The notes: generated by a model from the letters alone, not told the origin. Counted from the first letter of the stretch, positions 13,842-43,315 are shown. The stretch: 64,000 nt of DNA from a bacterium (GCA_030524925.1 JAUNFS010000002.1:2202-66201); one strand, 5' to 3'. Made by a program: numbers and translations.

Positions 13842-13863
13842 TATTGTTTGCTATCTTTTTTTA
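13836..13863 (+). terminator. rho-independent terminator after topA
   Basis: AGATAG-N9-CTATCT hairpin followed by T7. Confidence 0.6.
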
Positions 13864-13864
13864 G

Positions 13865-13893
13865 TTGATATAAATATTAAAATGAATTATAAT
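13865..13893 (+). promoter_or_regulatory. sigma-A-type promoter for surface protein gene A
   Basis: TTGATA, 17-nt spacer, TATAAT. RBS AAGGAG is 9 nt upstream of the ATG at 13926. Confidence 0.5.
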
Positions 13894-13925
13894 TGTTATA
13901 GATGATAGATAAGGAGTAACTTATT

Positions 13926-15617
13926 ATGGATGAGAAAACAATTAATATTAATAAAAGAAAAATATATGTAACTTTACTAATAGTAGTTATTTGTTTAATA
14001 GGTGTATCTTATGCATTTTTTACACTATATTTAAGACAAAGTGAAAAAAATACTATTACATCTCTTAGCTGCTTTAGTACAACATTTACTGAAGAAACAA
14101 ATGCTATAACACTAGAAAAAACTTATGCAGTAACAGAGGATGAAGGAATGAGTTATAGTCCATTTACTTTTAAAATAAAAAATAACTGTACTGATACGAT
14201 ATATGCTTATATAACGATTGATAGTTTAAATGAAGGAACATCTACTAATTTAGATAGTTCTCATGTAAGATATAATTTAAGTACTAAAGGAACTACTGAT
14301 GGAACTAGTGCAACACTTAAACCATCAAGTACTAAAAAATTAGAAAATGGTCACAATGGCTATGTAATTAAAACTTTAGCATTAAGTAGTAACGAGGAAT
14401 TAGAATATGATTTAAGATTATGGGTAGATGAAAAGACTACTGCTTCTGAAGGTTTAAGTAAAACTTGGAGTGGACAGGTTGTTGTAGTTAGTGATGCTGA
14501 AGAGCCAAATATAGATTGGAATTATACTGGTCAAGGGACGCTTTTAGCAGCAATTAAAAATGGCAATACTGTGAGTGACCCTTTGACTGTTCCTGGATCT
14601 GCAGCATCAACTTCTACTGAGGCAGTTTTAGCAAGTACACAAGATGATTATGGAACATCATATTACTTTAGAGGAGCAGTGGAAAACAATTATGTAGAGT
14701 ATGCTAATATGTGTTGGAGAATTGTTAGAGTAACCGGCGATGGTTCTATAAAGGTAGTTTTATATAATTACAATGGATTGACTACTACAAACAATACTCC
14801 ATCAAGTAGTACGCCATGTAATGTAACAGGTAATGATTTAGCTTTTGCAAGATATGAGGGTGATACTTATACTTCTAAATTTAATTCAAGTTATACTGGT
14901 AATGCTTATGTAGGATTTATGTATGGTGCTTCTGGTGCTAGTTATGCAAAAGCACATGCTAATACTAATGCAAGTACAATATTAACTAATCTAAATAAAT
15001 GGTATACAAATGTACTTTCTAAGCAAGCAAATTTTAAGGACAGTCAGCTTGCAGATACAATATGGTGTAATGATAAGCGTGTAGTAACTGATGCTACGTT
15101 TAATCCTCGTAATTTGACTTTGGGAACAAATTATGGTTATGCAAGGAATGCAAATTATTATAGCGCCACTAAAAGACTAGTACAAGCATCTTCATTGAGC
15201 GCTGGTGGTACGGGGCCTACTTTAATATGTCCAAATGATAACAATGATGGAAAGTTATCTAAGTTTACTGTAAGTGACACAACTTATGGCAATGGAGCAT
15301 TAAGTAGCTATGCAAAAGTAGGGTTGCTTACTGCAGATGAAATAGCATTTGCTGGTGGAGCTGTTTATACAAAATCAACATATTATATAAAGGGTAATGT
15401 TAATTCAAGTGATTGGTGGGCTTTGTCTCCGAGCGGTTACCTTGGCGTCGGCGCTTTCGTTTGGGTTGTTGTTGGTGCTGGCGGCGGCCTCATTGAACGT
15501 GGATTTGTTGACGACGGCTACGGCGTGCGCCCCTCTCTATCGCTTCAGTCGGGAGTCAAAATATCAAGTAGTGGGATTGGCAGTGCTACTAATCCTTATA
15601 AAGTTGTAATGGAGTAA
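13926..15617 (+). CDS. membrane-anchored Ser/Thr/Asn-rich surface protein, paralog family member A
   Basis: N-terminal signal-anchor helix. Shares motifs with ORF 49437-50927: NxCW[RK][IM]VR.T, AYVG[FY]MYG, and a C-terminal W.LSP…G[VA]RP[SA][LI][ST]L…DPY module. Contains an anomalous GC-rich segment at 15419-15570. Confidence 0.55.
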   Translation: MDEKTININKRKIYVTLLIVVICLIGVSYAFFTLYLRQSEKNTITSLSCFSTTFTEETNAITLEKTYAVTEDEGMSYSPFTFKIKNNCTDTIYAYITIDSLNEGTSTNLDSSHVRYNLSTKGTTDGTSATLKPSSTKKLENGHNGYVIKTLALSSNEELEYDLRLWVDEKTTASEGLSKTWSGQVVVVSDAEEPNIDWNYTGQGTLLAAIKNGNTVSDPLTVPGSAASTSTEAVLASTQDDYGTSYYFRGAVENNYVEYANMCWRIVRVTGDGSIKVVLYNYNGLTTTNNTPSSSTPCNVTGNDLAFARYEGDTYTSKFNSSYTGNAYVGFMYGASGASYAKAHANTNASTILTNLNKWYTNVLSKQANFKDSQLADTIWCNDKRVVTDATFNPRNLTLGTNYGYARNANYYSATKRLVQASSLSAGGTGPTLICPNDNNDGKLSKFTVSDTTYGNGALSSYAKVGLLTADEIAFAGGAVYTKSTYYIKGNVNSSDWWALSPSGYLGVGAFVWVVVGAGGGLIERGFVDDGYGVRPSLSLQSGVKISSSGIGSATNPYKVVME

Positions 15618-31323: not shown

Positions 31324-31992
31324 ATGAATAATGTTACAAAGTCTTATATTTTAGAAAGAGTATTAATGGGAGAAAATCCTAATAGTTATATTTGTACAAA
31401 TACTAGTAATAGATTAATGCGTGAGGTGGGAGAGCTTGGCGATTATAAAGATACGATTAGAGTTACGATAAGTGCTGAGGATTTAATGCTTTCTGGGATT
31501 GATAAAATTAAAGCAAATGATGCAAATAGTACAACAATCGTACAAGACTGTCTTTATGAAAGTTTGCTAGTGGCAATGGTTCTTAAAAAGGTTTTAGAAA
31601 AGTATCCTGAATTAAAGATTTTAGGAATTGATAAAGAGAAAGTTCAAAAAGCAATAAATAATTCTTTAACGACCGATGTAAGAAATATTAATCCTGATGT
31701 AATGTTTGCTAGATATCATTTAGATGCTTTTGCTAGACTTTTAAAAACTAAATATAATGCTAATATAAGTATAAATGTTCTTATTAGAAATGCTCCAGTG
31801 AACTTACAGAGAGTTATTAATTCTTATGTTAATGATAGATATACTTTTAGAACTGTACTGTTTACTGGTGATAGTGATTTATGTACATATTATGATTCTA
31901 ATGGAGTTTTGCTTCAAGATGTACATGATTATCATAGTCTTAATTTAAGAGGAATTTCTTCGTTATATGATAAAAAAAAGAATCTTCAATAA
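31324..31992 (+). CDS. hypothetical protein
   Basis: 222-aa ORF co-directional with gpsA. No recognisable motif. Confidence 0.4.
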   Translation: MNNVTKSYILERVLMGENPNSYICTNTSNRLMREVGELGDYKDTIRVTISAEDLMLSGIDKIKANDANSTTIVQDCLYESLLVAMVLKKVLEKYPELKILGIDKEKVQKAINNSLTTDVRNINPDVMFARYHLDAFARLLKTKYNANISINVLIRNAPVNLQRVINSYVNDRYTFRTVLFTGDSDLCTYYDSNGVLLQDVHDYHSLNLRGISSLYDKKKNLQ

Positions 31993-32008
31993 TAGAAGAT
32001 TTTTTTTA
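31980..32008. terminator. bidirectional terminator between the 31324 gene and the HAD gene
   Basis: AATCTTC-AATAATA-GAAGATT hairpin flanked by A8 and T8. Confidence 0.6.
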
Positions 32009-32551
32009 TAAAAATTTGTTTATTTCATTAAATTGATCCGTATGCTTTTCTACTTTGATTGTTTGAATCCCTAGATTTTTAGCACCAGTTATGTTTTCTG
32101 TATTATCATCTAAAAACAATAATTCTTCGGATTTTATATTGTATTTTTTCAATATATATTCATAAAAGTCAGCGTTTGGTTTTATTTTATGAATATTTGC
32201 CGAAATGATAATGTCATCTATATAGCTACTATCAAACGAATCTTTAATAAACTCTTCAATGAATGAAACATGATTAGTTGCTACAATGAGTTTTAAATTA
32301 CTATTTTTTTGTTTTATTTTCTTAAATATTTCAGTATCTTTTATTTTGTATAATTTATTAATTATATTTTTAGTTGTATTAATAATTGATAATTGATCTT
32401 CGTCAATGATATTTTTGGCTTTTGCTAAATATTCATCATCACTTAAATTAGGTCCAAATAACCTTTCTAGTTTGTCTTCTACTGGTAAAAGATCAATATC
32501 TTTCTCGTTTGCTAAAACACCTACAAAGTCAAAAGCAATAACTTTTATCAT
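32006..32551 (-). CDS. HAD family hydrolase
   Basis: N-terminal VIAFDFVGVL (DxD/DxV motif I) and C-terminal LFLDDN motif. Confidence 0.7.
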   Translation of the reverse strand: MIKVIAFDFVGVLANEKDIDLLPVEDKLERLFGPNLSDDEYLAKAKNIIDEDQLSIINTTKNIINKLYKIKDTEIFKKIKQKNSNLKLIVATNHVSFIEEFIKDSFDSSYIDDIIISANIHKIKPNADFYEYILKKYNIKSEELLFLDDNTENITGAKNLGIQTIKVEKHTDQFNEINKFL

Positions 32552-32581
32552 TTAACTCCTCCTTTTATTTATTTCAGTATA

Positions 32582-33253
32582 TCAAATATTTTTTATAATG
32601 TCATTTAAAATGTAACTAGCACATAATAAACCAGAAGTTGCTGGCATATAGGCAATAGTTCCTAATTTAGTTTGATTTTTAATTGGGGGCTCAGTGCTTG
32701 ATACAACTTTGAATTTAGTTCTTATTTTTTCGTCTTTTACTTTTTTTCTAATGATTCTAGCGATTGGGTCGTTTGAGGTTTTATCTATGGTAGTTATACT
32801 AAATTTTGACATATCCATTTTATTTGCTGTACCCATTGAGGAAATTAATTTGTAATTTGATGCATTTTTGATAAGTAACATTTTTAATTTTAAGTCGTCA
32901 CATGCATCTATTACGTAGTCGTATTTATTTTCTAGGAGAATATTAAAATTGTTTTCAGTAATAAATTCATTAATAGCTTTGATATTAGCGATTGGATTAA
33001 TGTTTAAAGCTCTTTCTTTAGCTACTAGTACTTTAGGTTTGCCTATTTCATTTATATTACTTATTATTTGTCTATTTAGGTTTGACTTTTCTACTATGTC
33101 ACCATCAACAATAGTAATATTAGTAATTCCTGATCTAACTAGCGTTTCAAAAGCATAACCCCCTACTCCACCAACGCCAACGATTAGAACGTTTTTAGTT
33201 TGGATTTTGTTAAATGATTCTTCATTAATTAAAGTAATAAGTCTTTCAAACAT
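32582..33253 (-). CDS. tcdA: ThiF/MoeB E1-like family protein, probably tRNA threonylcarbamoyladenosine dehydratase
   Basis: NVLIVGVGGVGGYAFETLVRSGITNITIVDGDIVEKSNLNRQ is a nucleotide-binding E1-like fold. Start is set at the ATG with AAAGGAGA RBS rather than the ORF-track GTG extension. Confidence 0.7.
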   Translation of the reverse strand: MFERLITLINEESFNKIQTKNVLIVGVGGVGGYAFETLVRSGITNITIVDGDIVEKSNLNRQIISNINEIGKPKVLVAKERALNINPIANIKAINEFITENNFNILLENKYDYVIDACDDLKLKMLLIKNASNYKLISSMGTANKMDMSKFSITTIDKTSNDPIARIIRKKVKDEKIRTKFKVVSSTEPPIKNQTKLGTIAYMPATSGLLCASYILNDIIKNI

Positions 33254-33502
33254 AATAATTCTCCTTTTTAAAACACATAAAAACCTAGAAAATAGTCTTA
33301 GTGATAAATTCCCGCGCACTCGCAAGGTGGGCATCACATAGAAGGCTTTAGGAGTCTAGATTAAATCTAGCTTTCTACACCACCTCTAATTAGATTCCCA
33401 ATATTCACCATTGACGGATTTATATTTAACCATCTTCTAGGTACTTTAATTATATCATAGATTTTTAATTTGTTAGCAAAAATCACATAATTTTACATTT
33501 TT

Positions 33503-33916
33503 TTATTGCATTGTAACTTTGTACGGATTAGTGGCAGTGCCATCACCAACTGATATTTTTATTTCTGAATTAAGTGATAAAGAGGGACGTACATTAACAT
33601 TGCCATTAGATGTATTATTGCCCTAGTGATGAATCTGGAAGCTTATATGTCTCAGCGTCTGCTACCCATAATCTTAAACTATAGTTATTTGTTATACCTG
33701 CTTCTATAGTTCCAATTTCTATTACTCCACTATCATCTGAAACGAACTTTGTTGTAGCATTATTAAGTGAATATCTAATATATTTGTGTGGTAATAAGTT
33801 ACTTGTATAACTTGGGTTATTATCTAGTTTAATAGTATATTTATATGGTACTGTTCCTGTGTTTGCTATAGAAAATGTATATAAATTATTAGTTTGACTT
33901 TTAGCAGCAGTATACT
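33503..33916 (-). pseudogene. internally deleted remnant of the surface-protein paralog family
   Basis: Minus-strand frames give YTFSIANTGTVPYKYTIKLDNN…KYIRYSLNN…YSLRLWVADAETYKLPDSSLGQ*, which is like the N-terminal third of gene A. A different frame gives NVNVRPSLSLNSEIKISVGDGTATNPYKVTMQ*, almost identical to the gene A C-terminus. There is no start codon and stops flank the fragments. Confidence 0.65.
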
Positions 33917-33992
33917 ATTGTTACTTAAATAATATCAAAGTATTTATTTTTTTACAATAAACATCTTGATTTTTGTTAGAAAAAGACAAGCT

Positions 33993-35759
33993 TTAGTTGC
34001 TTGCCTTATGTTCATATAAATACACATTTTTTGATGCAGTTAGACAAACATTGTAATATAAAAGTTTTTCAAGATCTAATTCTATACCCATTATTTGATT
34101 GATTATTGGTGCTTCTAGAAGTCTATTGTTATCTTTGATAATTATTGTGTAGTCTGCTTGTTCTTCTTTGCATCTTCTTGCTAGAATAAATTTAATATTT
34201 AGATCTTTACGATTTTTATAAATTATATTTTGACTATTTATTTCGTAGTTTTCATTTAATAATTTTATATCACCAGGATATCTGATTGCTAATAGAACTG
34301 TACTATTTTCTGGTAAGGTATTAAGTGTTTCATCAATATTAGAAATAATTTCTTCTTTTATTTCACTATTTTGTTCTGGAGATACTTTTCTAACGTTGTT
34401 ATCTAGTAAGTACTTAGGGTTTGAACCGTTAGTTTGGTAAATGCATTCTTCTACTTTACCTATGAGTGTATATGATGCATTACAATGATTTATTAGTTCT
34501 TTAATAAAATTATAATTATTTGTTGTTAAGTTCATAGCCTCATCCACAATGATATATTTGTAATTATAGTCTTGTTCTTTTATTAGATAAATGGCTTTAT
34601 TTATTAGATTATTTATTTCATTATCTTTGATATTTGCTAGATAATCATTATAAATTGGTGATACTAGTTCAATTAGTTTCTTATTTTGAAGACTAGTATT
34701 AAATGTTTCAAGCGTTTGATTAGATGAAATTAACTGAGTGATAATTATTTGGTATAATTCTACTATACTATCAATAACGTTTGAATTTTTAGAAAGAATA
34801 TCATTCCATAATTCATTTGCTTGTCTTGGATTAAATGCTACTTGATGAGTCTTTAGATTGTTATATAAATTTGTAAGCAATTTTCCTTCTAGTTTTTCTT
34901 TTGCATAACAGATTATATCATTGTTTTCTTCACTTTGATTTAATAGATATTTAATAGTGATATTATAGTCTGGTAGATTAAATTTGTCATCTTCGTATTT
35001 GTAGTTTATTTGGTTTTCGTATAAGAAGTTAGCGATGTCTACTTCATCAAAGTTATGCACTAGTTCATTATTAAAAGTTAATGGCTTATTAAGTTTGTAA
35101 TAATTATCTTTTTCTTCGTCACTAGTAAATTCTAAATCATTTTTTCTTTTGAAGTGATAATGTATTAGATATTTACATAGTTTTGAAAGATAAGTATCTT
35201 CTTTTAATAGAGAGTTTAGTTTATCTTTAATAAAGCCTTCTACGTTGGTGTTTTGAATTTTAATATTTTCATTAGTATCTTTATTGATAAGTTCTAAGAC
35301 TAAATTATTTATAGTACTTATCTTTATTTCGTTAGTAGGATTTATTTGATTATTTAATTCTTTAACATCTTTATTTGTATATGGTATTATTAAAATCTCT
35401 TTACGGTTAATATTTTTTTCTAGAAGTTTAGTAACTTTTTCTTTGATTATTTCTAGTTTGTTTGAGTGAATTCCAGCATATATTATTTCATTTTGAACAG
35501 TGCTATCTTTAATGTTTTGGTTGTGAGAATTAATCTTGATTTCAGCTTCTTCTAAATTTTGACGAATTGTTTTGCAAAGTTCCTGAAGTTCAGTAGATTT
35601 TGTTTTTTCATTGTCATTTAGGAAACTAGTTGCAAGATTTAGATAAGTGTCTTTGATGTTTTCGGGAATTACTTTGTTAGGGTTTTTAAAAAAGTCATTA
35701 TAGTTTTCTATAAGACTTTGTGCTACTAATATCATTTCTTTTAGATCATTTTCATTCAT
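33993..35759 (-). CDS. UvrD/PcrA-like SF1 helicase homolog with degenerate Walker A (probably ATPase-inactive)
   Basis: Motif Ia-like ILIIPYTNKDVKEL, motif II IIVDEAMNL, motif III-like IGKVEECIYQTNGSNP, and a C-terminal KFILARRCKEEQADYTIII. The expected Walker A AGAGSGKT is replaced by AGIHSNKL. Confidence 0.5.
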   Translation of the reverse strand: MNENDLKEMILVAQSLIENYNDFFKNPNKVIPENIKDTYLNLATSFLNDNEKTKSTELQELCKTIRQNLEEAEIKINSHNQNIKDSTVQNEIIYAGIHSNKLEIIKEKVTKLLEKNINRKEILIIPYTNKDVKELNNQINPTNEIKISTINNLVLELINKDTNENIKIQNTNVEGFIKDKLNSLLKEDTYLSKLCKYLIHYHFKRKNDLEFTSDEEKDNYYKLNKPLTFNNELVHNFDEVDIANFLYENQINYKYEDDKFNLPDYNITIKYLLNQSEENNDIICYAKEKLEGKLLTNLYNNLKTHQVAFNPRQANELWNDILSKNSNVIDSIVELYQIIITQLISSNQTLETFNTSLQNKKLIELVSPIYNDYLANIKDNEINNLINKAIYLIKEQDYNYKYIIVDEAMNLTTNNYNFIKELINHCNASYTLIGKVEECIYQTNGSNPKYLLDNNVRKVSPEQNSEIKEEIISNIDETLNTLPENSTVLLAIRYPGDIKLLNENYEINSQNIIYKNRKDLNIKFILARRCKEEQADYTIIIKDNNRLLEAPIINQIMGIELDLEKLLYYNVCLTASKNVYLYEHKASN

Positions 35760-35762
35760 GTA

Positions 35763-37532
35763 TTAGTTTGTTCCTTTCCATCTAGCGTAGACATTACAGT
35801 TACTTGAGTATGGTAATGGGTTTGGAAGATCCATTTTAATTAATAAAGGTATTTTAAAAGCGTTACCGAATGATACAAGGGTGCCTGATTGTAACGAGTT
35901 TAATTTTTCAATGATGTCACTTGATACATTTGGAAGCATTTTTTCAATATATTCTAAGTCTTTTGGATGGGTCATTTTTAGAACTAAGAAGTTACTCATC
36001 TGAGCTACAACTGTTTCTGAGATGTCTACTGGTCTTTGAGATATTAAATCTATTAAGACACCATATTTACGACCTTCTTTAGCGATACGTTCAAAGATAT
36101 TATAACCTAGTAAGAATTTATCGTTGTCTGCTACTACATATCTGTGGGCTTCTTCTATAATTAGATGAAATGGAATTGATGCTCTTACTTTACGTGATTT
36201 AGAAAAGTCAAAGACCATTTTACTAACTATTTTTACAATTACTTTTGCTAGGTTGTCATCTATATCTTCTAGGTTGATGTTAATTATTTGACTTCTTTTA
36301 TGATTTAGAACTATTAAGCTTGAGATATATTGTTCTAGGGTTATGTACTGATTAATTTCAAAGAATAATGCGTTACGACTATTAATGATTGAGTGAAGTC
36401 TAACTTTTAAGATGATTGCTGAATCTTGCATTTGTCTATTAGTTAAGAATCCTTCACCAATTAGGGTAAATTCTAGGGCTTTTTCTAGATCTTTTAGTGT
36501 GAAAAATGCGTTTGTTGGAACTTCAATAGAACTTTCTAGTTCTTCGTTTAGATTTTTAGCGATGTATTCATTAATTAGAACGCTTTCACCAAACTCACCT
36601 TTATTATCTATTTTAAAACATTCACTAAATCTTCTTGTATAACCGATTCCTTGAATTTCCGTGTTCATACTGAATGCTGGAGTTGAACATGATGAGATAA
36701 TTGTGAAGATGTCATTTTTCTTACCACTTGCGTTTTGGTTACTGAATAAAACTGATTGAATAGCTTTAGCAATTAAGTGGTTTTTTAGTTTTTCAGTATC
36801 AGCATCATTTTTACTAAATAGCTTTGCTAGTTTCATCATTCTTTCAATAATTGTTAACTGTGAGTGGTTTTCAGCATTTAATAAAAGTGCGATATCATCG
36901 TTTGTAAATAAGAATATTGGTAATCTAAATAAGACGTCAGTTTCATCAGTTGGATTGGTTGTTAAAAATTTGTACTGATATACGTCACTTATTTGGTTAA
37001 TGTCTTTAAAAGCATTTTTATATTCACCGTAGGCATCAAATATAAATAAATTGGCATTAGCGGCTTTAAAGTTTTGGTTTAGGAAAATATTTTGGACAAT
37101 TCTTGATACTGAACATGATTTACCTGAACCAGAGTTACCAAAGATAGCTAAGTGGTTTGAAAATAAGTCATTGATGTTTGCGTAGATGTTTCTATCTTTG
37201 TAGATTGGACTTTTGCCAATATAGATTGATTCTTCGTCATTTTTGCCCATGATGATGTCTAATTCTTCATCGTTAATAACTCTTAGGGAACTTGTTAGTG
37301 TAGGTTTTTTGATGGTACCTGCGATAAATCTAGTACCGGTAAATTCACCCAAAAGTTCAATTTTCATGGTATTTTCGTCGACATTTTTAACTTCGCCTAA
37401 TAGTTTGTCACCATTTGATTCAAAGACTACATGAAGATTCATTAAGTTACTTATGACATTGCCTTCTTTATTAATTTCTACTATGGCAGTATTATCACTA
37501 ATATATTTTATTTTTCCAAACATGTTAACCAA
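35763..37532 (-). CDS. HerA-like (DUF87) ATPase
   Basis: N-terminal HAS-barrel-like region. Walker A FGNSGSGKS and Walker B HLIIEEAHRY are characteristic of HerA/FtsK-superfamily DUF87 ATPases. 3-bp gap to the downstream gene. Confidence 0.65.
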   Translation of the reverse strand: MVNMFGKIKYISDNTAIVEINKEGNVISNLMNLHVVFESNGDKLLGEVKNVDENTMKIELLGEFTGTRFIAGTIKKPTLTSSLRVINDEELDIIMGKNDEESIYIGKSPIYKDRNIYANINDLFSNHLAIFGNSGSGKSCSVSRIVQNIFLNQNFKAANANLFIFDAYGEYKNAFKDINQISDVYQYKFLTTNPTDETDVLFRLPIFLFTNDDIALLLNAENHSQLTIIERMMKLAKLFSKNDADTEKLKNHLIAKAIQSVLFSNQNASGKKNDIFTIISSCSTPAFSMNTEIQGIGYTRRFSECFKIDNKGEFGESVLINEYIAKNLNEELESSIEVPTNAFFTLKDLEKALEFTLIGEGFLTNRQMQDSAIILKVRLHSIINSRNALFFEINQYITLEQYISSLIVLNHKRSQIININLEDIDDNLAKVIVKIVSKMVFDFSKSRKVRASIPFHLIIEEAHRYVVADNDKFLLGYNIFERIAKEGRKYGVLIDLISQRPVDISETVVAQMSNFLVLKMTHPKDLEYIEKMLPNVSSDIIEKLNSLQSGTLVSFGNAFKIPLLIKMDLPNPLPYSSNCNVYARWKGTN

Positions 37533-37594
37533 CCTCTTTACTATAAATAAAGTATATCACATAAAAAAAAGATAATCTAGAGTACTACTTTAAA

Positions 37595-38581
37595 TTATCC
37601 GATTTTATAATAATTTTTTATGATTGTACTAAGTGAGTTTATGAGCATTCTGAAGTTAAATTCAAGAACTGTACTTGAATAGGTTTCTATTTGTTCGGGG
37701 TTGATGTTTCCTTTTGCTAAATAGTTTGCGGCAATTGTTAAAATTGGTGTAGTTTGGTTATTATTTTTTTCAGTATCTAATATTTCTCTTGCTGATGTGT
37801 AGTAGGAAAAGTCTGATGCGGTCAGAGTATTAATTGCTAACTTAAATAAGTCTAGTTCTTTTTCTTCTATACCATCAGTTATGATACCTCTATTATATAG
37901 ATCTATTATTTTACTTGCTAAGATTTCAATTATGTTAAATGAGGCGATTCTAGCTGATGTATGTGACTTTAATAAGTCTTCTATGGAACTGGTGTAGTAT
38001 GCTGAGTATTTTGGAAATAGAGCTTTGATTTTGTCATAGTGTCTTTGAGATACGGATACATTATCTAGTCTTCTTTTATCATTGATATCAAGAGAGATAA
38101 TATTTTTTAATGTATTTTTGATACTATCCATAATAGTAGCTATTTCTCTTGTTAGTTCATCAATTTGATTTAATTTTGATCCAGTTACTCGCTCGTTGTG
38201 CTGATAAATACTGTTTTTAGAGTTATAGTTTTGAGCTGCTATATACCCTTCTTTTGCAAGTGAAGTGATTTTTGTGTAAGTGTCTGGATCTAAATAATTG
38301 CTGTCTTTTGTTAGAACTTTTAACTGCTCTATGATAAGCTCGCATTTAGTTTTTTGAAGACGTTGTTTAACTTTTGATGATTCTATTATTCTATTTGCAT
38401 CGTCAACGCTATTTTGTAAATTTATTAAAGTTGTTCTTTTTTCAAAATATATAGATAAAAGATTGGCTAGTTTAACATACTCTTCTTCTACTGGTAGTGG
38501 TAAGCAATCGTTACAAACATTAATAAAGCCTTGAATTATATTATCTGTATATGAATTTAGCTTGGTAACATTTACTTTCAT
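37595..38581 (-). CDS. hypothetical alpha-helical protein, first gene of the HerA operon
   Basis: 329 aa from the ATG with AAGAAGGTA RBS. The ORF track extends to a 38614 start that lacks an RBS. No recognisable catalytic motif. Confidence 0.4.
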   Translation of the reverse strand: MKVNVTKLNSYTDNIIQGFINVCNDCLPLPVEEEYVKLANLLSIYFEKRTTLINLQNSVDDANRIIESSKVKQRLQKTKCELIIEQLKVLTKDSNYLDPDTYTKITSLAKEGYIAAQNYNSKNSIYQHNERVTGSKLNQIDELTREIATIMDSIKNTLKNIISLDINDKRRLDNVSVSQRHYDKIKALFPKYSAYYTSSIEDLLKSHTSARIASFNIIEILASKIIDLYNRGIITDGIEEKELDLFKLAINTLTASDFSYYTSAREILDTEKNNNQTTPILTIAANYLAKGNINPEQIETYSSTVLEFNFRMLINSLSTIIKNYYKIG

Positions 38582-38604
38582 GATATCACTTACCTTCTTT
38601 ATTA

Positions 38605-38633
38605 ATCTTATCACAATAGAATAACTTCTTCAA
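38605..38633 (-). promoter_or_regulatory. candidate promoter of the three-gene HerA operon
   Basis: On the minus strand: TTGAAG, 17-nt spacer, TAAGAT. Confidence 0.3.
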
Positions 38634-38635
38634 GT

Positions 38636-38660
38636 AATAAAAAAATCACTTTCTAGTGAA
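38636..38660 (-). terminator. rho-independent terminator after the ABC transporter genes
   Basis: Minus-strand TCACT-AGAA-AGTGA hairpin followed by T9. Confidence 0.55.
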
Positions 38661-38670
38661 AGCAATTTTC

Positions 38671-41070
38671 TTAAATATCTTTTCTTGACAAGATTTCTGC
38701 AGGCCTTTTTCTAATGGTATTTGCTACTGGTAATAAACCAAATAAGAGATTTACTGCAAAGCATAATATTATTGAAATACCAATTGTTAGTGGTGTAAGC
38801 ATACAGAAATTTGCTAGGTATTTTATTTTAGTTATATTATATAAAATATATGTCATAAAAGCTATGCCAGCTAGAGATGCTGTTAGAGAAATAGCAATGA
38901 TTTCGCCAGCAAACATTTTATAAATATCACTTTTTTTAACGCCGATAGCTCTATATGTTCCTACTTCTTTAATTCTTGATAAGAATGATGAACGAATCAT
39001 TAGAAATACTTCAATAATTGATATAGCAATGATTACAGCTGAGAAAATAAGAATTGAGTTTGTTGTTCCTTCGGTTTCGTCTAAATATTCTTTTTTAGCT
39101 ACTTCATAACTGTCTCTAGCGTTAATTTCCTTATTATTTAGTTCTTCTATTATTTTAGATTTTTCATTTGCTGATACAGTGATACTTTGACAGCTTAGAA
39201 TTAGTTCGTATTTGATTGTGTTTTTATTAGTTATGTAGTTTGTTAGATTATCTTCTGAGGTGTAATAACCAACTACTTTAAGGTCTTTACCACCTACTAC
39301 TTCACTAGTTTTATCACCTATTTTATAAGCGTATCTTTGACTATATGGAACAATTACTTCGTAGTCATTTTCGGGATTTTTTCCTTCTTTTAGGGTGTAA
39401 GCTGTTTCTTGATAGTCTAGTAGAGTTACAGTTTTACCTTCGTTACCAATATTGTTATATAGGATATCAGTAAATAAGCTTTCGTCTGCATAGATTGCTG
39501 GGCTTTCTGAAGAAATGATACCTACTATTTTAAATTTTTTCATGTTTGGAATAGAAATATATTCACCTATTAGTTTTTCCGGACTATTTATTCCAGCTTC
39601 TGGTGCCATCCCCATTGAACTTAATATAGTTTTTAAAACCATTTGATCTACTACCACTTCATATTTGTCTTGTGGTAGAGTACCAGCAATTAAGTCTTGT
39701 TCTTTGATAAGTTTTGTACTAACTAAAGAGGCGTTTATTGTTTCAGAAACTCCTGAGCTTTGAAAGAATGTGTTGTAAGAAATTTCAAATGTTGCACGGG
39801 AATTTCCAGGCATAATATAGTTAATATCACTTATTTGCTCTAGTTCTTTGTACTTTTTTAAATCCATTTTTGAAAAGGTTGCATTTATGTATGATGGATG
39901 AGTATTAACAAAGTCGCTATCTTTAATATTTAGAGTTGCAAAGATTCTTGTAACACTAAATAAGATAAACATACTTGCTGCCATATAGCCTAAAAGTAAT
40001 ATTTTTTTAAGTACTGAATAGTTCATAATCTTTTTAAAGCCATTTGTTAAAAATGTGATTGGCGTAAAGATACTACTATATTTTTTCTTGTAATTTTCGT
40101 TAATAATGTTTTGAAAATTAAATTCGTATTTGTTTAATTCTTCTTTATCAACTGGCTTATAGTGTTCATCAAGTAATTTAATATTTGAGTTTTCATCTAT
40201 TACTTCAACTTTTAATGGACCATTATTTTGAATGTAAATATTGCCATTTTGTACTACTAAGGTAATATCTAGTTTGTTTTCGGTTGTTTCGTAAATATCT
40301 ATTTTTTGATTTTTGCTTGTTAATTCATTTTTATTTAAGTCTTTTAAATAGATATTGTTTTCTATGCGGTAGTCTAAATCTTTAACTTCAGTGTTTTTGT
40401 AGTCTTTTATGATTTTGCCGTCTTCTAGTTCAATTATTCTATCGGCATAAAAGTGAGCTAAATTTACTTCGTGAGTTACTAGGATTACTAACTTTGTTTT
40501 TGATATTGATTTAATGATTTTCATGATTTCTAGGGAGTTTTTAGAGTCTAAGTTACCGGTTGGTTCGTCTGCTAAAATTACTTCTGGATTTTTAACGATA
40601 GCTCTAGCAATACCTACTCTTTGTCTTTCGCCGCCTGAAAGCATGCTTGCTGGTCTTGCACGGAAACGATAAATTCCTAGAGTTTCTAAACAGTAATTTA
40701 CCCTTTTTTGAATTTCGTTTTTATCTTTAATACCAATTTGTTTAAGAGCTAGAGCAACGTTGTCATATACACTTAAGTTATCTATTAGTTTATAGTCTTG
40801 AAAGATATAACCGATGTTTAAATTTCTAATTTTGTCTATTTTGTAAGTGTTCCTGCGAGTTATTTTTTGACCATTGATGTAGATACTACCGCTTTTTACT
40901 TTGTCTAAACCACCAATTACGTTTAATAGAGTCGTTTTACCGCATCCTGATTCACCTAAAAGAGCAACTAGACCTTGATCTGGTAATTTTAGGGAAGTGT
41001 CATTAATGACATGAATTTGATTTTTTTTACCTTTATTAAAGTATTTATTTACTTTTTCTAATGTAATCAT
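38671..41070 (-). CDS. ABC transporter, fused ATP-binding and FtsX-like permease protein (MacB-like)
   Basis: N-terminal Walker [10 protein letters not shown], signature LSGGERQRV, and Walker [13 protein letters not shown]-terminal half has TM helices of the FtsX type. AGGAGG RBS. Confidence 0.8.
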
Positions 41071-43235
41071 TATTCTTCCTCCTCATTATAAGTTTTCATT
41101 GCGCTTTGTTTAAAAATATATTTTGAAAAACGAACACTGATAATATATGTTAGTAATAATATTAATACATAGATTGTTATGTAATTTTTTAGGCTTAGGT
41201 ATTTTAAGGTAGATGCTAGCGGGATATCTATAATTTTGTGAGTACTTAATAAGATGAATGTTAAAGTAAGAATTGCGGCAATATTTAGTACTGTAAATAG
41301 TTCTATTCTTAAGATTTTTTTGCAGATCTTTTTGTTTGAACCTAAAATTCTTAAAATTGTGTAATATGATTTTCTAGATTTTAAAATTAATTTAATTATT
41401 AAGTAAGAGATGATGAACATCACTATTAGCATAATAACAGTTACAACTAAGTTTACGATATTTAAAATATATACTGTACTACTTGATTCATTATTCAACA
41501 TTTTAGTTACGGCATAAGCATTAAATCCAGCGTTTTCTAGATTCTTGATAGTATCATCTATTTTTAGTTCATCTTTTACAAAGACACTACTTTGATAGAT
41601 GTCACTAGTAAGCATATCTTCAATGGTTTTATCGTTAATATAGCAGAATGTATAATAGTCTTTATAAGATGAACCTGTATATTTTTTGTAATTTGATTTA
41701 TTTAGAATTCTATTTGCTTTTAGGGTTTTACTTGTTGATACATAGTTGTTATTAAGCTTTAAGGTAACTTCTTTAATTTCATCACTTAGGGATTCGTTTA
41801 AGTAGATACTATCTTCAGGAATTAGGTTGTTATGTCTAAGTACGCAGTTAAAGTTAGGATCTTCTGAAATCATATTTAGATTTGATTTACCTAATTTATA
41901 GTTTAAAATACTTTCGTATAGCATTTTTGATGAGACGTTGATGATGATTTTGTCACCGATATTTTCATTATATTTGATACCAGTAAGAACTGCTTTTTTA
42001 GTATCTATATCCATACCGTAGTCAAAGCCATAATTAAATGATTTATTAATTAACTTTTCTCTATCATATAGATTGTAATTATCTTTAGATAGTTCTAACA
42101 TAATTTCATTATCTTTAGTTGGTACTGTACCTAAATCAGCTTTAGCATCTTTGCTAATTTCTTTTACTTGACCTCTAAAGTAATAATAATCTTTATATAA
42201 AGACATTATGGCATCTAGTGAGATATCATCTTTGACTAGATAATCAATGTTTTCAATGTTATTTAGTTTATTAAAGTCTTCATCAGTTATTTTAGATTTG
42301 TCTTTTTTAACAAGGATAATTCTTTTCGTATCAGTATTTGCTAAAAATGAGTTATAACCTCTTGATGTTTCTTCATATTTACTTGATTTAAATGAGGCAG
42401 TTTCTAGGGTTAGAGCTAGAAACATGAATAAGAAAACAATTAATAATAGTAAGAATTTAGGTACGATGTTAAAAGTGTTTCTGATACCTAATCTGATTGA
42501 TGATATAAGTCTAATTTTTTGATTATGACTTTCTTCTAGTTTTGTACTAGTTTCGGTTTCTTTAATTTTTTTATCTTCTATTATTTTGCCATCAAACATC
42601 GTAATTTTTCTAGTTGCATATTCTTTAAAGTCTTCATAGTTGTGAGTTACGATTATAACTAGTTTATCTTTAGATACTTCTTTTAGGGTTTTAATTACAC
42701 TAGCTGCACTTTTACGATCTAGGGATCCAGTTGGCTCATCGGCAATAATTATTGGAGTATTTTTAGCTAGAGCACGCGCTATTGCTACTCTTTGTTTTTG
42801 ACCACCAGATAGCTTAGAAACACGGGTATTTTTATATCTTGTTAAGTCTACTTGTTTGATAAGTTCTAGGACTCTTTCTTTAATTTCTTTCTTTTTGTAT
42901 CCGTTAATTAATAGTACTAGTTCAATATTTTGATAGACAGTATAACTAGCAACTAGGTTAAAGTTTTGAAAGATATTACTAATATATTTTTTACGATAGT
43001 TTTCAAATTCTTCTTCTCCATAGTGACTAGTTTCTTTACCGCTTATATAAAGCTCGCCTTCTTCATAAGTATCAAGGCCAGATATAACGTTTAGTAAAGT
43101 AGATTTACCACTGCCACTTTCTCCAGTGATTACAACGAATTCACCGATATTAAATTCAGCGTTAATTTTGGTAATTCCGGATGTGATTATTCCTTTTTGA
43201 TAGTAATACTTTGAGACATCTTTTAATTTGATCAT
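41070..43235 (-). CDS. ABC transporter, fused ATP-binding and FtsX-like permease protein (paralog)
   Basis: GESGSGKST, LSGGQKQRV, IIADEPTGSLD, and a C-terminal permease domain. Start at the ATG with AGAGGTGGG RBS. Stop overlaps the start of the downstream paralog. Confidence 0.8.
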   Translation of the reverse strand: MIKLKDVSKYYYQKGIITSGITKINAEFNIGEFVVITGESGSGKSTLLNVISGLDTYEEGELYISGKETSHYGEEEFENYRKKYISNIFQNFNLVASYTVYQNIELVLLINGYKKKEIKERVLELIKQVDLTRYKNTRVSKLSGGQKQRVAIARALAKNTPIIIADEPTGSLDRKSAASVIKTLKEVSKDKLVIIVTHNYEDFKEYATRKITMFDGKIIEDKKIKETETSTKLEESHNQKIRLISSIRLGIRNTFNIVPKFLLLLIVFLFMFLALTLETASFKSSKYEETSRGYNSFLANTDTKRIILVKKDKSKITDEDFNKLNNIENIDYLVKDDISLDAIMSLYKDYYYFRGQVKEISKDAKADLGTVPTKDNEIMLELSKDNYNLYDREKLINKSFNYGFDYGMDIDTKKAVLTGIKYNENIGDKIIINVSSKMLYESILNYKLGKSNLNMISEDPNFNCVLRHNNLIPEDSIYLNESLSDEIKEVTLKLNNNYVSTSKTLKANRILNKSNYKKYTGSSYKDYYTFCYINDKTIEDMLTSDIYQSSVFVKDELKIDDTIKNLENAGFNAYAVTKMLNNESSSTVYILNIVNLVVTVIMLIVMFIISYLIIKLILKSRKSYYTILRILGSNKKICKKILRIELFTVLNIAAILTLTFILLSTHKIIDIPLASTLKYLSLKNYITIYVLILLLTYIISVRFSKYIFKQSAMKTYNEEEE

Positions 43236-43315
43236 TTTCCCACCTCTTAAGCACATTATACTTTTATATATGAAAAAAAACAACCAAATTAGACTGTTTT
43301 CTGTAAAGTAAAATT

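What the first reader, a model, noticed from the sequence alone, without database searches (positions are those of the whole stretch)
33993..38633. Three-gene HerA-like ATPase, inactivated UvrD-like helicase and unknown protein: candidate undescribed defense or DNA-processing module
- A minus-strand operon encodes a 329-aa helical protein of unknown function, a HerA/DUF87 ATPase with intact Walker A and B, and a 588-aa protein (3-bp gap).
- The 588-aa protein keeps UvrD/PcrA helicase motifs Ia, II and III, but its Walker A is degenerate (AGIHSNKL instead of AGAGSGKT).
- HerA ATPases are known with NurA, Sir2 or DUF4297 partners. I do not know of a described pairing with a catalytically dead SF1 helicase scaffold.
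- The operon has its own promoter, lies between a decaying surface-protein pseudogene and an ABC exporter pair, and is away from housekeeping operons. This is typical of an accessory or defense location.
Basis: partly seen in the sequence, partly recalled or inferred. Interest (0 to 1): 0.8.

Follow-up and report, generated by a model that had tools for sequence, protein, structure and literature searches.

The report
Core HerA motor with dead-helicase partner
An uncultured gut bacterium (RF39 group) has a very conserved DNA-pumping ATPase (HerA) that, in two genera only, sits beside a catalytically dead helicase and a coiled-coil protein; this looks like a lineage-specific add-on to a housekeeping motor, not a mobile anti-phage island.

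Summary
The three genes are real and on the minus strand:
- a 328-339 aa all-helical protein;
- a HerA ATPase with intact Walker A, Walker B and QRP motifs;
- a 588-aa SF1A (UvrD/Rep-fold) protein that starts 3 bp after HerA and has degenerate catalytic motifs.

No described HerA system fits. There is no SIR2, DUF4297 or NurA partner, and the NCBIfam cut-offs are missed by a wide margin.

The context argues against an accessory defence island:
- HerA is vertically inherited in at least 80 RF39 species. It sits among housekeeping genes (gatB, thiF, gpsA, rarA; next to dnaA-dnaN in about 20 species).
- HerA is more conserved than those neighbours (dN/dS about 0.02) and has neither partner within 10 kb in about 70 of the 80 species loci.
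- The dead helicase occurs only in two sister genera, always directly downstream of HerA. It was already dead in their common ancestor and is still under purifying selection (dN/dS 0.14-0.26).
- The helical protein belongs to a small Firmicutes family that elsewhere lies in housekeeping contexts without HerA.
- Both partners evolve and recombine far faster than HerA.

Best reading: a housekeeping HerA translocase that gained a non-catalytic, RecC/AddB-like DNA-binding adaptor. Defence is not excluded but is the less likely reading.

The parts
37595..38581 (-). unk339: 328-aa all-helical protein (the ORF can be extended to a GTG at 38614, giving 339 aa). It has a long antiparallel coiled-coil hairpin (residues 40-102 and 110-174) and a C-terminal helical bundle.
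   Evidence: - ORF; start and RBS; gene callers give 328 aa.
- No hit in Pfam, NCBIfam, PADLOC or PHROGs.
- The family has 29 representatives at 50% clustering; alignment A2.
35763..37523 (-). HerA-family (FtsK/HerA superfamily) ATPase, 586 aa (589 aa from the TTG at 37532). It has an N-terminal HAS-barrel-like region and intact Walker A (GNSGSGKS), Walker B (IIEEAH) and QRP motifs.
   Evidence: Orthologues were found in 80 RF39 species loci.
33993..35759 (-). dHel: 588-aa catalytically dead SF1A (UvrD/Rep/helicase IV-like) pseudo-helicase. It derives from a helicase family that carries an internal nuclease-like insert and a C-terminal Zn ribbon. It starts 3 bp after the HerA stop codon.
   Evidence: - Alignments.
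- PADLOC GajB and RTasHel matches at about 1e-10; Pfam AAA_19 at 1e-5.
- AF2 and Foldseek results.
- Junction sequence.
38582..38670 (-). Intergenic region between the ABC exporter stop codon and unk339. It holds a small hairpin followed by a T-run, then a TTGAAG-17 nt-TAAGAT promoter-like site and an RBS.
   Evidence: Read directly from the sequence. The consensus scan gives no statistical support in this AT-rich DNA.
37524..37594 (-). 71-bp spacer between unk339 and HerA. It holds a T-run, a TGTGATATACT extended -10-like element and the RBS AAAGAGG. HerA may therefore have its own promoter.
   Evidence: Read from the sequence. This is an inference only.
33975..34003 (-). Weak terminator-like hairpin (CAAGC...GCTTG) that overlaps the dHel stop codon and is followed by TCTTTTTCT.
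   Evidence: Sequence. The palindrome was reported by the scan, which listed it on the + strand.
33506..33911 (-). Deletion remnant of a 555-583 aa signal-peptide (surface or secreted) protein gene that is intact in conspecific contigs. It is not part of the module but marks its downstream edge.
   Evidence: tblastn and blastn against L096 and L001; gene tables.

Best explanation
**What it is.** The centre of the locus is an order-wide, vertically inherited, active HerA-type hexameric DNA translocase of RF39 bacteria. It most likely does a housekeeping DNA job (repair, recombination or chromosome handling), not phage defence.

**The dead helicase.** In the common ancestor of two sister genera, a helicase of the UvrD family (the kind with a nuclease-like insert and a Zn ribbon) was placed directly downstream of HerA. 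It lost ATPase function, and apparently nuclease function too. It has since been kept as a translationally coupled, non-catalytic subunit.

**How it probably works.** I infer that the dead helicase acts as a DNA-binding or recruiting adaptor that docks on or hands DNA to the HerA motor. RecC in RecBCD and AddB in AddAB are precedents: dead SF1 helicase folds that serve as DNA-recognition scaffolds beside active motors. NurA, SIR2 and DUF4297 likewise dock on HerA hexamers.

**The coiled-coil protein.** unk339 belongs to a separate Firmicutes family. It may be a third structural partner or merely a neighbour with its own promoter.

**Shown versus inferred.**
- Shown: gene structure, fold assignments, motif loss, phyletic pattern and selection regime.
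- Inferred: physical interaction, DNA substrate and cellular role.
For: **HerA is active and strongly constrained.**
- The G..GSGK residues of Walker A, the EE and H of Walker B and the QRP motif are invariant in 81 sequences, and the remaining motif positions vary.
- dN/dS is 0.016-0.027.
- HerA is 92% identical to the sister genus where GatB is 72%, RarA 76% and GpsA 79%.

**HerA is core and sits in housekeeping synteny.**
- 80 species loci were retrieved.
- Its neighbours are gatB, a TtcA-like PP-loop ATPase, thiF, gpsA, rarA, pdp, hemW-like, ylxM and dnaA-dnaN.
- GC content matches the flanks.

**The dead helicase is tied to HerA.**
- In every contig that carries the family, it lies directly downstream of HerA: the window, L001-3, L096-99, L010-13 and L102-108.
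- The gap is 3 bp, with an RBS inside HerA.

**It is a maintained pseudoenzyme, not a decaying pseudogene.**
- The reading frames are intact in two genera.
- Walker A, motif II and motif VI are already lost in the 735-741 aa sister-genus form, which still keeps motif III and the Zn ribbon.
- dN/dS is 0.14-0.26 and no 60-codon window exceeds 1.
- The SF1A fold is predicted with pLDDT 83.

**An active paralogue exists in another RF39 species.** L033 encodes a 1104-aa form with all motifs intact.

**No effector.** No effector or nuclease domain is detectable in any of the three proteins.
Against:
- About 70 of the 80 RF39 species loci carry HerA with no dead helicase or unk339 within 10 kb, so HerA does not need them.
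- The nearest characterised HerA relatives are anti-phage ones. SIR2-HerA on Enterococcus and Listeria plasmids is 31% identical. PDB 9c1m, 8xau and 8ziq score slightly above the archaeal repair HerA 4d2i.
- Both partners evolve and recombine unusually fast, which also fits an arms-race locus. Amino-acid identity among four sister species is 56-88% for dHel and 64-93% for unk339, against 97-100% for HerA. Silent-site divergence is 2.5-3.5 times that of the flanks. A recombination breakpoint lies inside the dead helicase.
- The housekeeping role of the stand-alone HerA is itself unknown.
Confidence: 0.5

Rival explanations
1. The trio is an undescribed anti-phage or anti-plasmid system. The conserved HerA hexamer would be the motor or scaffold. 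The fast-evolving dead helicase and coiled-coil protein would be the sensor or specificity subunits.
For: - PADLOC HerA models match strongly (360 bits), and the helicase matches GajB and DRT-helicase models at about 1e-10.
- The closest annotated HerA relatives belong to SIR2-HerA systems.
- One active relative of the helicase lies beside a DNA methyltransferase and large unknown ATPase-like genes (L004/L005).
- The partners are the fastest-evolving genes in the neighbourhood and show raised silent divergence and mosaic recombination.
- The spots on either side of HerA are plastic: variable secreted or membrane genes are inserted there, and one has decayed in the window.
Against: - No effector domain is present, and both the ATPase and the putative nuclease motifs of the helicase are dead.
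- HerA is core, syntenic and ultra-conserved across at least 80 species, and usually has no partner.
- There are no integrase, transposase or island boundaries, and the GC content is the same as in the flanks.
- NCBIfam anti-phage HerA equivalogs score 176 and 153 bits against cut-offs of 850 and 800.
- unk339 relatives sit in housekeeping contexts.
- dN/dS stays well below 1 everywhere tested.
Confidence: 0.17
2. The three genes are only neighbours. HerA works alone or with partners encoded elsewhere. unk339 is an unrelated cytoplasmic coiled-coil protein. The dead helicase is a slowly decaying relic that keeps some HerA-independent role, for example a HelD-like or other protein-binding role.
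For: - HerA stands alone in most species.
- unk339 relatives are never next to HerA outside the two genera.
- In L011-L013, extra genes are inserted between the ABC gene and unk339, or between unk339 and HerA.
- The 71-bp unk339-HerA spacer has its own promoter-like and RBS elements.
- The helicase shows progressive loss of parts, from 735-741 aa with a Zn ribbon down to 643 and then 588 aa without one.
- Foldseek also matches the RNA-polymerase-binding HelD.
Against: - The dead helicase is directly downstream of HerA in every contig found, with a 3-20 bp gap, across two genera whose silent sites are saturated.
- Purifying selection persists.
- Adjacency kept despite local rearrangements and recombination points to co-expression.
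Confidence: 0.25
3. The locus is a conjugation, type IV secretion or DNA-uptake module, with the HerA-like ATPase acting as a VirB4/TraG/FtsK-type pump.
For: There are weak P-loop-level hits to FtsK_SpoIIIE (23 bits), TrwB (14.7 bits), the VirB4-like CD1110 family (30.7 bits) and CedD (47.9 bits).
Against: - All of these hits are far below their cut-offs (24, 20.5, 325 and 600 bits).
- There are no relaxase, pilus or membrane components, and HerA has no transmembrane segments.
- HerA is chromosomal and core, and the full-length match is to HerA proper.
Confidence: 0.02

Closest known systems
SIR2-HerA and DUF4297-HerA anti-phage systems (solved HerA chains 8xau, 8ziq, 8j4u and 9c1m; the SIR2/DUF4297 attribution of these entries is from memory)
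   Same: Both have a HerA-family hexameric ATPase encoded beside a partner gene in a tight operon. These are the closest characterised HerA sequences: 31% identity and 90% coverage to the plasmid SIR2-HerA, and the best PDB sequence hits.
   Different: - There is no SIR2 or DUF4297/nuclease effector here.
- The partner lies downstream and is a dead SF1 helicase.
- This HerA is a core, syntenic, ultra-conserved gene, not a sporadic island or plasmid gene.
- The NCBIfam equivalog cut-offs are missed by 4-5 fold.
HerA-NurA DNA-end resection machinery (archaea, Deinococcus, Thermus)
   Same: It is a housekeeping HerA translocase that works with a non-motor partner sitting on the hexamer and guiding DNA. 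A vertically inherited, chromosomal context also fits.
   Different: - No NurA-like (RNase H-fold nuclease) partner is present, and no Mre11/Rad50 lies in the operon.
- The HerA_Thermprot and helicase_HerA models score 123 and 98 bits against cut-offs of 800 and 970.
- The partner here has no predicted catalytic activity.
RecC of RecBCD and AddB of AddAB (inactivated SF1 helicase folds used as DNA-recognition scaffolds)
   Same: A UvrD-like SF1 fold with dead motor motifs, and in RecC a dead nuclease fold too, is retained under selection as a non-catalytic subunit next to an active DNA motor. AddA and RecB are among the Foldseek matches to the model.
   Different: - In those complexes the active motor is another SF1 helicase, not a HerA/FtsK-type hexamer.
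- No specific homology to RecC or AddB was shown.
- The analogy concerns how it may work, not family membership.
Gabija GajB, helicase IV/HelD-like and DRT-associated UvrD-type helicases
   Same: The dead helicase gives partial matches to GajB and RTasHel HMMs (about 1e-10) and structural matches to HelD and GajB.
   Different: - Those proteins are active ATPases.
- GajA (an OLD nuclease) and a reverse transcriptase are both absent here.
- The parent family here has an internal nuclease-like insert and a Topo-type Zn ribbon.

Membership tests
SIR2-HerA / DUF4297-HerA defence systems | HerA-family ATPase with intact P-loop motifs | tested here: met
   Pfam DUF87 at 3e-20; PADLOC HerA at 360 bits; the core P-loop residues (G..GSGK, EE.H, QRP) are invariant.
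SIR2-HerA / DUF4297-HerA defence systems | Adjacent SIR2 or DUF4297 (Cap4-like nuclease) effector gene | tested here: not met
   Neither partner matches any SIR2 or DUF4297 model in Pfam, PADLOC or NCBIfam. One partner is all-helical and the other has an SF1A fold.
SIR2-HerA / DUF4297-HerA defence systems | HerA reaches the curated NCBIfam anti-phage HerA equivalog score | tested here: not met
   NF042944 scores 176 bits against a cut-off of 850. NF042943 scores 153 bits against 800.
SIR2-HerA / DUF4297-HerA defence systems | Sporadic, accessory distribution (islands, plasmids) | tested here: not met
   Orthologues lie in 80 RF39 species loci in conserved housekeeping synteny.
HerA-NurA end-resection pair | Neighbouring NurA nuclease (usually with Mre11/Rad50) | tested here: not met
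   There is no NurA, Mre11 or Rad50 hit among the operon partners. The neighbours in the other 75 species loci that were identified by reading representative sequences are housekeeping genes.
HerA-NurA end-resection pair | HerA reaches the repair-HerA equivalog score | tested here: not met
   NF040937 scores 123 bits against a cut-off of 800. NF040819 scores 98 bits against 970.
Active SF1A UvrD/Rep/PcrA-type helicases | Two RecA-like domains with the UvrD/Rep topology | tested here: met
   AF2 model with pLDDT 83. Foldseek probability 1.0 to Rep, PcrA, UvrD, HelD, AddA and RecB.
Active SF1A UvrD/Rep/PcrA-type helicases | Walker A GxGxGK(T/S), motif II DExQD, motif III GDxxQSIY and the motif VI arginine | tested here: not met
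   The window has AGIHSNKL, DEAMN, GKVEECIY and LTASK, where active relatives have AGAGSGKT, DEYQD, GDDWQSIY and LTRAK.
Gabija (GajA-GajB) | GajA OLD-family ATPase-nuclease next to an active GajB helicase | tested here: not met
   There are only partial GajB HMM hits (best 1.2e-10, residues 358-515), and no GajA in the operon.
MADS (mad1-8) defence system | Multi-gene mad cluster that includes a methyltransferase | tested here: not met
   HerA hits mad8 at only 65 bits and mad3 at E = 0.066. No other mad genes were hit.
Conjugative VirB4 / T4CP / FtsK pumps | Family-level score to the VirB4, TraG/TrwB or FtsK models | tested here: not met
   Scores against cut-offs: 30.7 against 325, 14.7 against 20.5, and 23.3 against 24 bits.
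RecC/AddB-type inactivated helicase scaffolds (works-like comparison only) | A dead SF1 fold forms a stable complex with an active motor and contacts DNA | not testable with these tools
   Multimer prediction and biochemistry were not available. Only the genetic coupling was shown.

The most novel reading that the evidence does not exclude
RF39 bacteria, a whole order of reduced-genome, uncultured gut bacteria, rely on a stand-alone, near-invariant HerA hexamer as an essential chromosome-handling motor. It could be a bacterial counterpart of the proposed archaeal HerA/FtsK role, and in about 20 species it lies beside dnaA-dnaN. In two genera this motor has acquired a RecC-like dead helicase-nuclease and a coiled-coil protein as fast-evolving substrate-selecting subunits. 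That would be a previously unseen type of HerA holoenzyme, in which a pseudo-helicase directs a hexameric pump.
Probability: 0.25. Interest if true: 0.75.

Novelty: new variant of a known kind. Interest (0 to 1): 0.45.

Why it matters
HerA motors are known from archaeal DNA-end resection and, more recently, as scaffolds of bacterial anti-phage systems. This locus adds two things.

- **A third situation for HerA.** Here it is a core, extremely constrained gene across an order of uncultured gut bacteria with small genomes, and its function is unknown.
- **A long-lived pseudo-helicase partner.** If the dead helicase is a real subunit, the RecC/AddB principle (dead SF1 folds used as DNA readers) would extend to a different class of motor.

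The case is also a caution for defence-island mining. A strong PADLOC HerA hit plus a GajB-like neighbour looked like a defence system, but comparative context shows a housekeeping core gene.

Tried and rejected
- **Known-system assignment.** Pfam, PADLOC, NCBIfam and PHROGs scans of all three proteins gave no system-level match.
- **Conjugation or T4SS.** Rejected on scores and context.
- **unk339 related to the 325-aa gene upstream of the active helicase in L004.** No similarity.
- **Profile search of the unk339 family against PDB sequences.** Only coiled-coil noise.
- **Naming the nuclease-like insert of the active helicases.** Only a sub-threshold Phage_endo_I hit at E = 0.04. The 'dead nuclease' claim therefore rests on a motif pattern (E...PDF...IEY/H) and is inconclusive.
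- **Promoter and terminator scan.** Uninformative in 28% GC DNA.
- **dif-site search with the B. subtilis dif sequence.** No match.
- **Replication terminus at the roughly 32 kb strand switch.** GC and AT skews are ambiguous, so I did not use this.
- **AFDB fold library.** Unavailable.
- **Exact-sequence look-up of the window's 589-aa TTG-start HerA ORF.** Not on record.
- **Metagenome scan for more distant dead-helicase relatives.** It returned only 7 loci, 6 of them of the already known sister-genus type.
- **First pairwise dN/dS script.** Timed out and was rewritten. Two gene pairs gave dN/dS of about 1, which I suspect are mis-framed alignments. I ignored those two values.


Full report
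**1. Observation**

The minus strand of the window carries three co-oriented ORFs:
- 37595-38614, 339 aa from a GTG start. The ATG at 38581 behind a GAAGG RBS gives the 328 aa that gene callers report.
- 35763-37532, HerA, 589 aa from a TTG start. The ATG at 37523 behind AAAGAGG gives 586 aa.
- 33993-35759, 588 aa. It starts 3 bp after the HerA stop codon, with a GGAAAGGAA RBS inside the HerA 3' end.

HerA is unambiguous.
- It hits Pfam DUF87 at 3e-20 and PADLOC HerA model PDLC04102 at 360 bits over the full length.
- The core residues of Walker A (G..GSGK), Walker B (EE.H) and the QRP motif are invariant in 81 HerA sequences, 79 RF39 orthologues plus the window and one conspecific copy. The other positions of these motifs vary.

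The 588-aa protein has an SF1A fold.
- The AF2 model (pLDDT 83, pTM 0.77) matches Rep, PcrA, UvrD, HelD, AddA and RecB at Foldseek probability 1.0.
- Its catalytic motifs are gone. The table compares it with active relatives of 830-1100 aa.

| Motif | Window protein | Active relatives |
|---|---|---|
| I (Walker A) | AGIHSNKL | AGAGSGKT |
| II | DEAMN | DEYQD |
| III | GKVEECIYQTNGS | GDDWQSIYRFAGS |
| VI | LTASK | LTRAK |

- The active relatives also carry an internal E...PDF...IE(Y/H)xG insert that looks like a PD-(D/E)xK nuclease. The window protein has lost the PDF segment, and its E is replaced by K. I could not confirm the nuclease identity with a model; the only hit was Phage_endo_I at E = 0.04.
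- The relatives' C-terminal Topo-type Zn ribbon is also absent here.

- The helicase motifs are degenerate throughout, not 'kept'.
- The locus is not away from housekeeping genes.

**2. Organism and context**

- The window comes from an RF39-type 'uncultured Tenericutes/Bacilli' gut bacterium. The closest genome is UMGS1372. GC content is about 28%, uniform across the locus.
- Upstream of the operon lie hisS, aspS, gatCAB and two ABC/FtsX exporter genes.
- Downstream lie the remnant of a signal-peptide protein gene, 6S RNA, a thiF-family gene, a HAD hydrolase, gpsA, rarA and a tyrosine recombinase.
- The remnant spans 33506-33911. It keeps only residues 71-168 and 519-555 of an intact 555-aa homologue.

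**3. Comparative genomics of HerA**

A single scan retrieved HerA orthologues in 80 species-representative genomes at 47-92% identity. Most are labelled Bacilli, Tenericutes or Mollicutes MAGs and include Clostridium sp. CAG:302; a few carry other labels such as Muribaculaceae or Phocaeicola.

I checked the flanks with tblastn, ORF clustering and profile HMMs.
- unk339 and the dead helicase occur beside HerA only in the window species and in four species of a sister genus (L010-13).
- Everywhere else the neighbours I identified by reading representative sequences are housekeeping genes, and neither partner is within 10 kb. The arrangements are:
  - gatB - herA - TtcA-like PP-loop ATPase - thiF;
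  - pyrimidine-nucleoside phosphorylase - herA - HemW-like radical SAM;
  - ylxM - herA;
  - herA - dnaA - dnaN, in about 20 species.
- In several species thiF follows HerA directly, and in others gatB directly precedes it.
- HerA is more conserved than its housekeeping neighbours. Against the sister genus it is 92% identical, where GatB is 72%, ThiF 73%, RarA 76% and GpsA 79%.
- HerA dN/dS is 0.016-0.027.

This is the signature of a vertically inherited core gene, not of a defence island.

**4. The partners**

*The dead helicase.*
- In every contig that carries the family, the gene lies directly downstream of HerA. This covers the window, conspecific contigs L001-3 and L096-99, sister-genus genomes L010-13 and seven metagenome contigs L102-108.
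- The sister-genus form is 735-741 aa. It still has motif III (GDDWQSIY) and the Zn ribbon, but already lacks Walker A, the motif II DE pair and motif VI.
- The ATPase was therefore dead in the common ancestor of the two genera, and further parts were shed later (643 aa, then 588 aa).
- An intact 1104-aa paralogue with all motifs exists about 6 kb downstream of HerA in another RF39 species, L033.
- Other active relatives lie in unrelated contexts. One sits beside a DNA methyltransferase and large unknown genes.

*unk339.*
- It belongs to a small family: 29 representatives at 50% clustering, 320-370 aa, with conserved FP..vE..YV.L.N and LDIDG.KRID motifs.
- Three members from other Firmicutes lie between rpsD and ezrA-thiI, after murC, or between ksgA and yabG-veg. 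None has a HerA or helicase nearby.
- In the sister genus, extra membrane or secreted ORFs are inserted between the ABC gene and unk339, or between unk339 and HerA.
- The 71-bp unk339-HerA spacer has its own promoter-like element.
- The unk339-HerA link is therefore weaker than the HerA-helicase link.

**5. Evolutionary regime**

The window with L096-99, and L001-3 with L056, form two closely related clades. Flank dS between them is 0.2-0.35. The values below compare the two clades; the clade range is given where it was measured, otherwise the window-L001 pair. The last column is divergence at four-fold sites of conserved residues for the window-L001 pair.

| Gene | dN | dS | dN/dS | Four-fold-site divergence |
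|---|---|---|---|---|
| HerA | 0.008 | 0.50 | 0.016 | 0.27 |
| unk339 | 0.11 | 1.2-1.3 | 0.09 | 0.70 |
| dHel | 0.22 | 1.5-1.6 | 0.14 | 0.51 |
| Flanks (GatA, GatB, ABC1, ABC2, GpsA, RarA) | ≤0.013 | 0.10-0.35 | 0.03-0.08 | 0.12-0.29 |

- The other downstream genes are more variable at four-fold sites (ThiF 0.39, unk222 0.40, HAD 0.03).
- The four-fold-site values show that the partners' excess divergence is real and not only an artefact of amino-acid change.
- The pattern repeats among four sister-genus species. Amino-acid identity is 93-97% for GatB and 97-100% for HerA, but 64-93% for unk339 and 56-88% for the dead helicase.
- In the L010/L011 pair the helicase gene is mosaic. Codons 1-360 are nearly identical (dS about 0). 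Codons 360-735 have dS of 0.4-1.1, which marks a recombination breakpoint. Overall dN/dS is 0.25, and no 60-codon window exceeds 1.

Both partners are therefore functional genes under relaxed purifying selection. They are also exchanged between lineages, while HerA is almost frozen.

**6. Interpretation**

The core fact is an order-wide, active, highly constrained HerA whose role must be independent of the two partners in most species. That argues for a housekeeping DNA transaction.

The dead helicase is strictly associated with HerA, translationally coupled to it and maintained for a long time. The most economical reading is a non-catalytic subunit or adaptor of the HerA motor.

From established knowledge, not tested here:
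- RecC and AddB are inactivated SF1 helicase folds that act as DNA-reading scaffolds beside active motors.
- NurA, SIR2 and DUF4297 proteins dock on HerA hexamers.

The fast evolution of the partners fits either of two explanations:
- released catalytic constraint, since pseudoenzymes and coiled coils tolerate change;
- an arms-race sensor role.

I rank the explanations as follows:

| Explanation | Confidence |
|---|---|
| Housekeeping HerA with a non-catalytic adaptor | about 0.5 |
| Adjacency without a functional link | about 0.25 |
| New defence system | about 0.17 |
| Conjugation or secretion module | about 0.02 |

**7. Comparison with known systems**

- The nearest sequences are HerA proteins of SIR2-HerA systems on Enterococcus and Listeria plasmids, at 31% identity.
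- The best-scoring solved HerA chains are 9c1m, 8xau and 8ziq, which I take to be defence HerAs, although the depositors' names for these entries do not say so. They score only slightly above the Sulfolobus HerA 4d2i.
- Membership of SIR2-HerA, DUF4297-HerA, HerA-NurA, Gabija, MADS or conjugative ATPase families fails on defining features: effector or partner genes, curated score cut-offs and distribution.
- I found no paper describing a HerA plus dead-helicase pairing, or an RF39 HerA, in two full-text searches.

**8. Verdict**

- The feature is real and matches no described system.
- The 'defence island' framing is not supported.
- It is best classed as a new variant of the HerA-plus-partner theme, built on a core gene.
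- Interest is moderate at 0.45. The more intriguing open question is what the near-invariant stand-alone HerA does in RF39 bacteria.

Noticed in passing
window 33278-33446 (-): A 6S/SsrS RNA gene (Rfam RF00013, 48.6 bits against a gathering score of 46.4) lies between the pseudogene remnant and the thiF-family gene. The mechanical GTG-start ORF 32582-33337 overlaps it, so the true thiF start is probably the ATG near 33253.
   Followed up: partly
L063-L089 (about 20 RF39 species, e.g. L081 Clostridium sp. CAG:302, 10001-14669): In this RF39 subclade, herA lies immediately upstream of dnaA-dnaN on the same strand, in the gene cluster that usually marks the replication origin. This may hint at a chromosome-related role or may be coincidental synteny.
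   Followed up: partly
L010 vs L011, dHel gene (L010:11773-13980): The gene is sharply mosaic. The first 360 or so codons are almost identical between the two species (dS about 0), while the C-terminal half has dS of 0.4-1.1. This indicates a recent recombination breakpoint inside the dead-helicase gene.
   Followed up: partly
L033:10012-13326 (+): This RF39 species has a fully intact 1104-aa paralogue of the dead helicase. All SF1 motifs, the nuclease-like insert, the Zn ribbons and a C-terminal RQC domain are present. It lies about 6 kb downstream of herA, beyond rarA and a Xer-like recombinase, and is a candidate for the active ancestor type.
   Followed up: partly
L004:2464-12529 and L005 (Tissierella-like contigs): An active 842-aa relative of the helicase sits in a co-oriented cluster with an N6/N4 DNA methyltransferase, a 921-aa unknown protein, an 865-aa protein with faint AAA_21/PHP hits and a 325-aa unknown protein. 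The cluster looks like a defence island and may be uncharacterised.
   Followed up: no
window 33506-33911 (-); L013:8769-9833; L011:8320-8922; L001:12082-13833: The positions on either side of herA in these genera are hot spots for variable membrane-anchored or secreted proteins. One (555-583 aa) is reduced to a deletion remnant in the window. Two others (F127 of 354 aa and F76 of about 200 aa) are inserted in sister species.
   Followed up: partly
window about 31500-32600: Gene orientation switches here: mostly + strand to the left, all - strand to the right. GC skew drops from about +0.3 to about 0 instead of turning negative, and AT skew turns negative. It is unclear whether this is a replication terminus or a 32-kb block of head-on genes. 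No B. subtilis-type dif site was found.
   Followed up: partly
L090:8001-9110, L093:5877-6887, L094:975-1958: The unk339 family (about 330-370 aa, coiled-coil hairpin, conserved LDIDG.KRID motif) is an uncharacterised protein family found in several Firmicutes-type contigs. It lies next to cell-envelope or division and translation genes (ezrA, murC, ksgA-yabG-veg).
   Followed up: partly
window 38671-43283 (-): Two tandem fused ABC-ATPase/FtsX-permease genes (737 and 799 aa, MacB-like) co-occur with unk339 and the dead helicase in the window species and the sister genus (L054 also has a single ABC2-like gene upstream of herA). They are absent upstream of herA in the other RF39 species loci except L054. 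The block gatB-[ABC-ABC-unk339]-herA-[dHel] therefore looks like a clade-specific expansion.
   Followed up: partly
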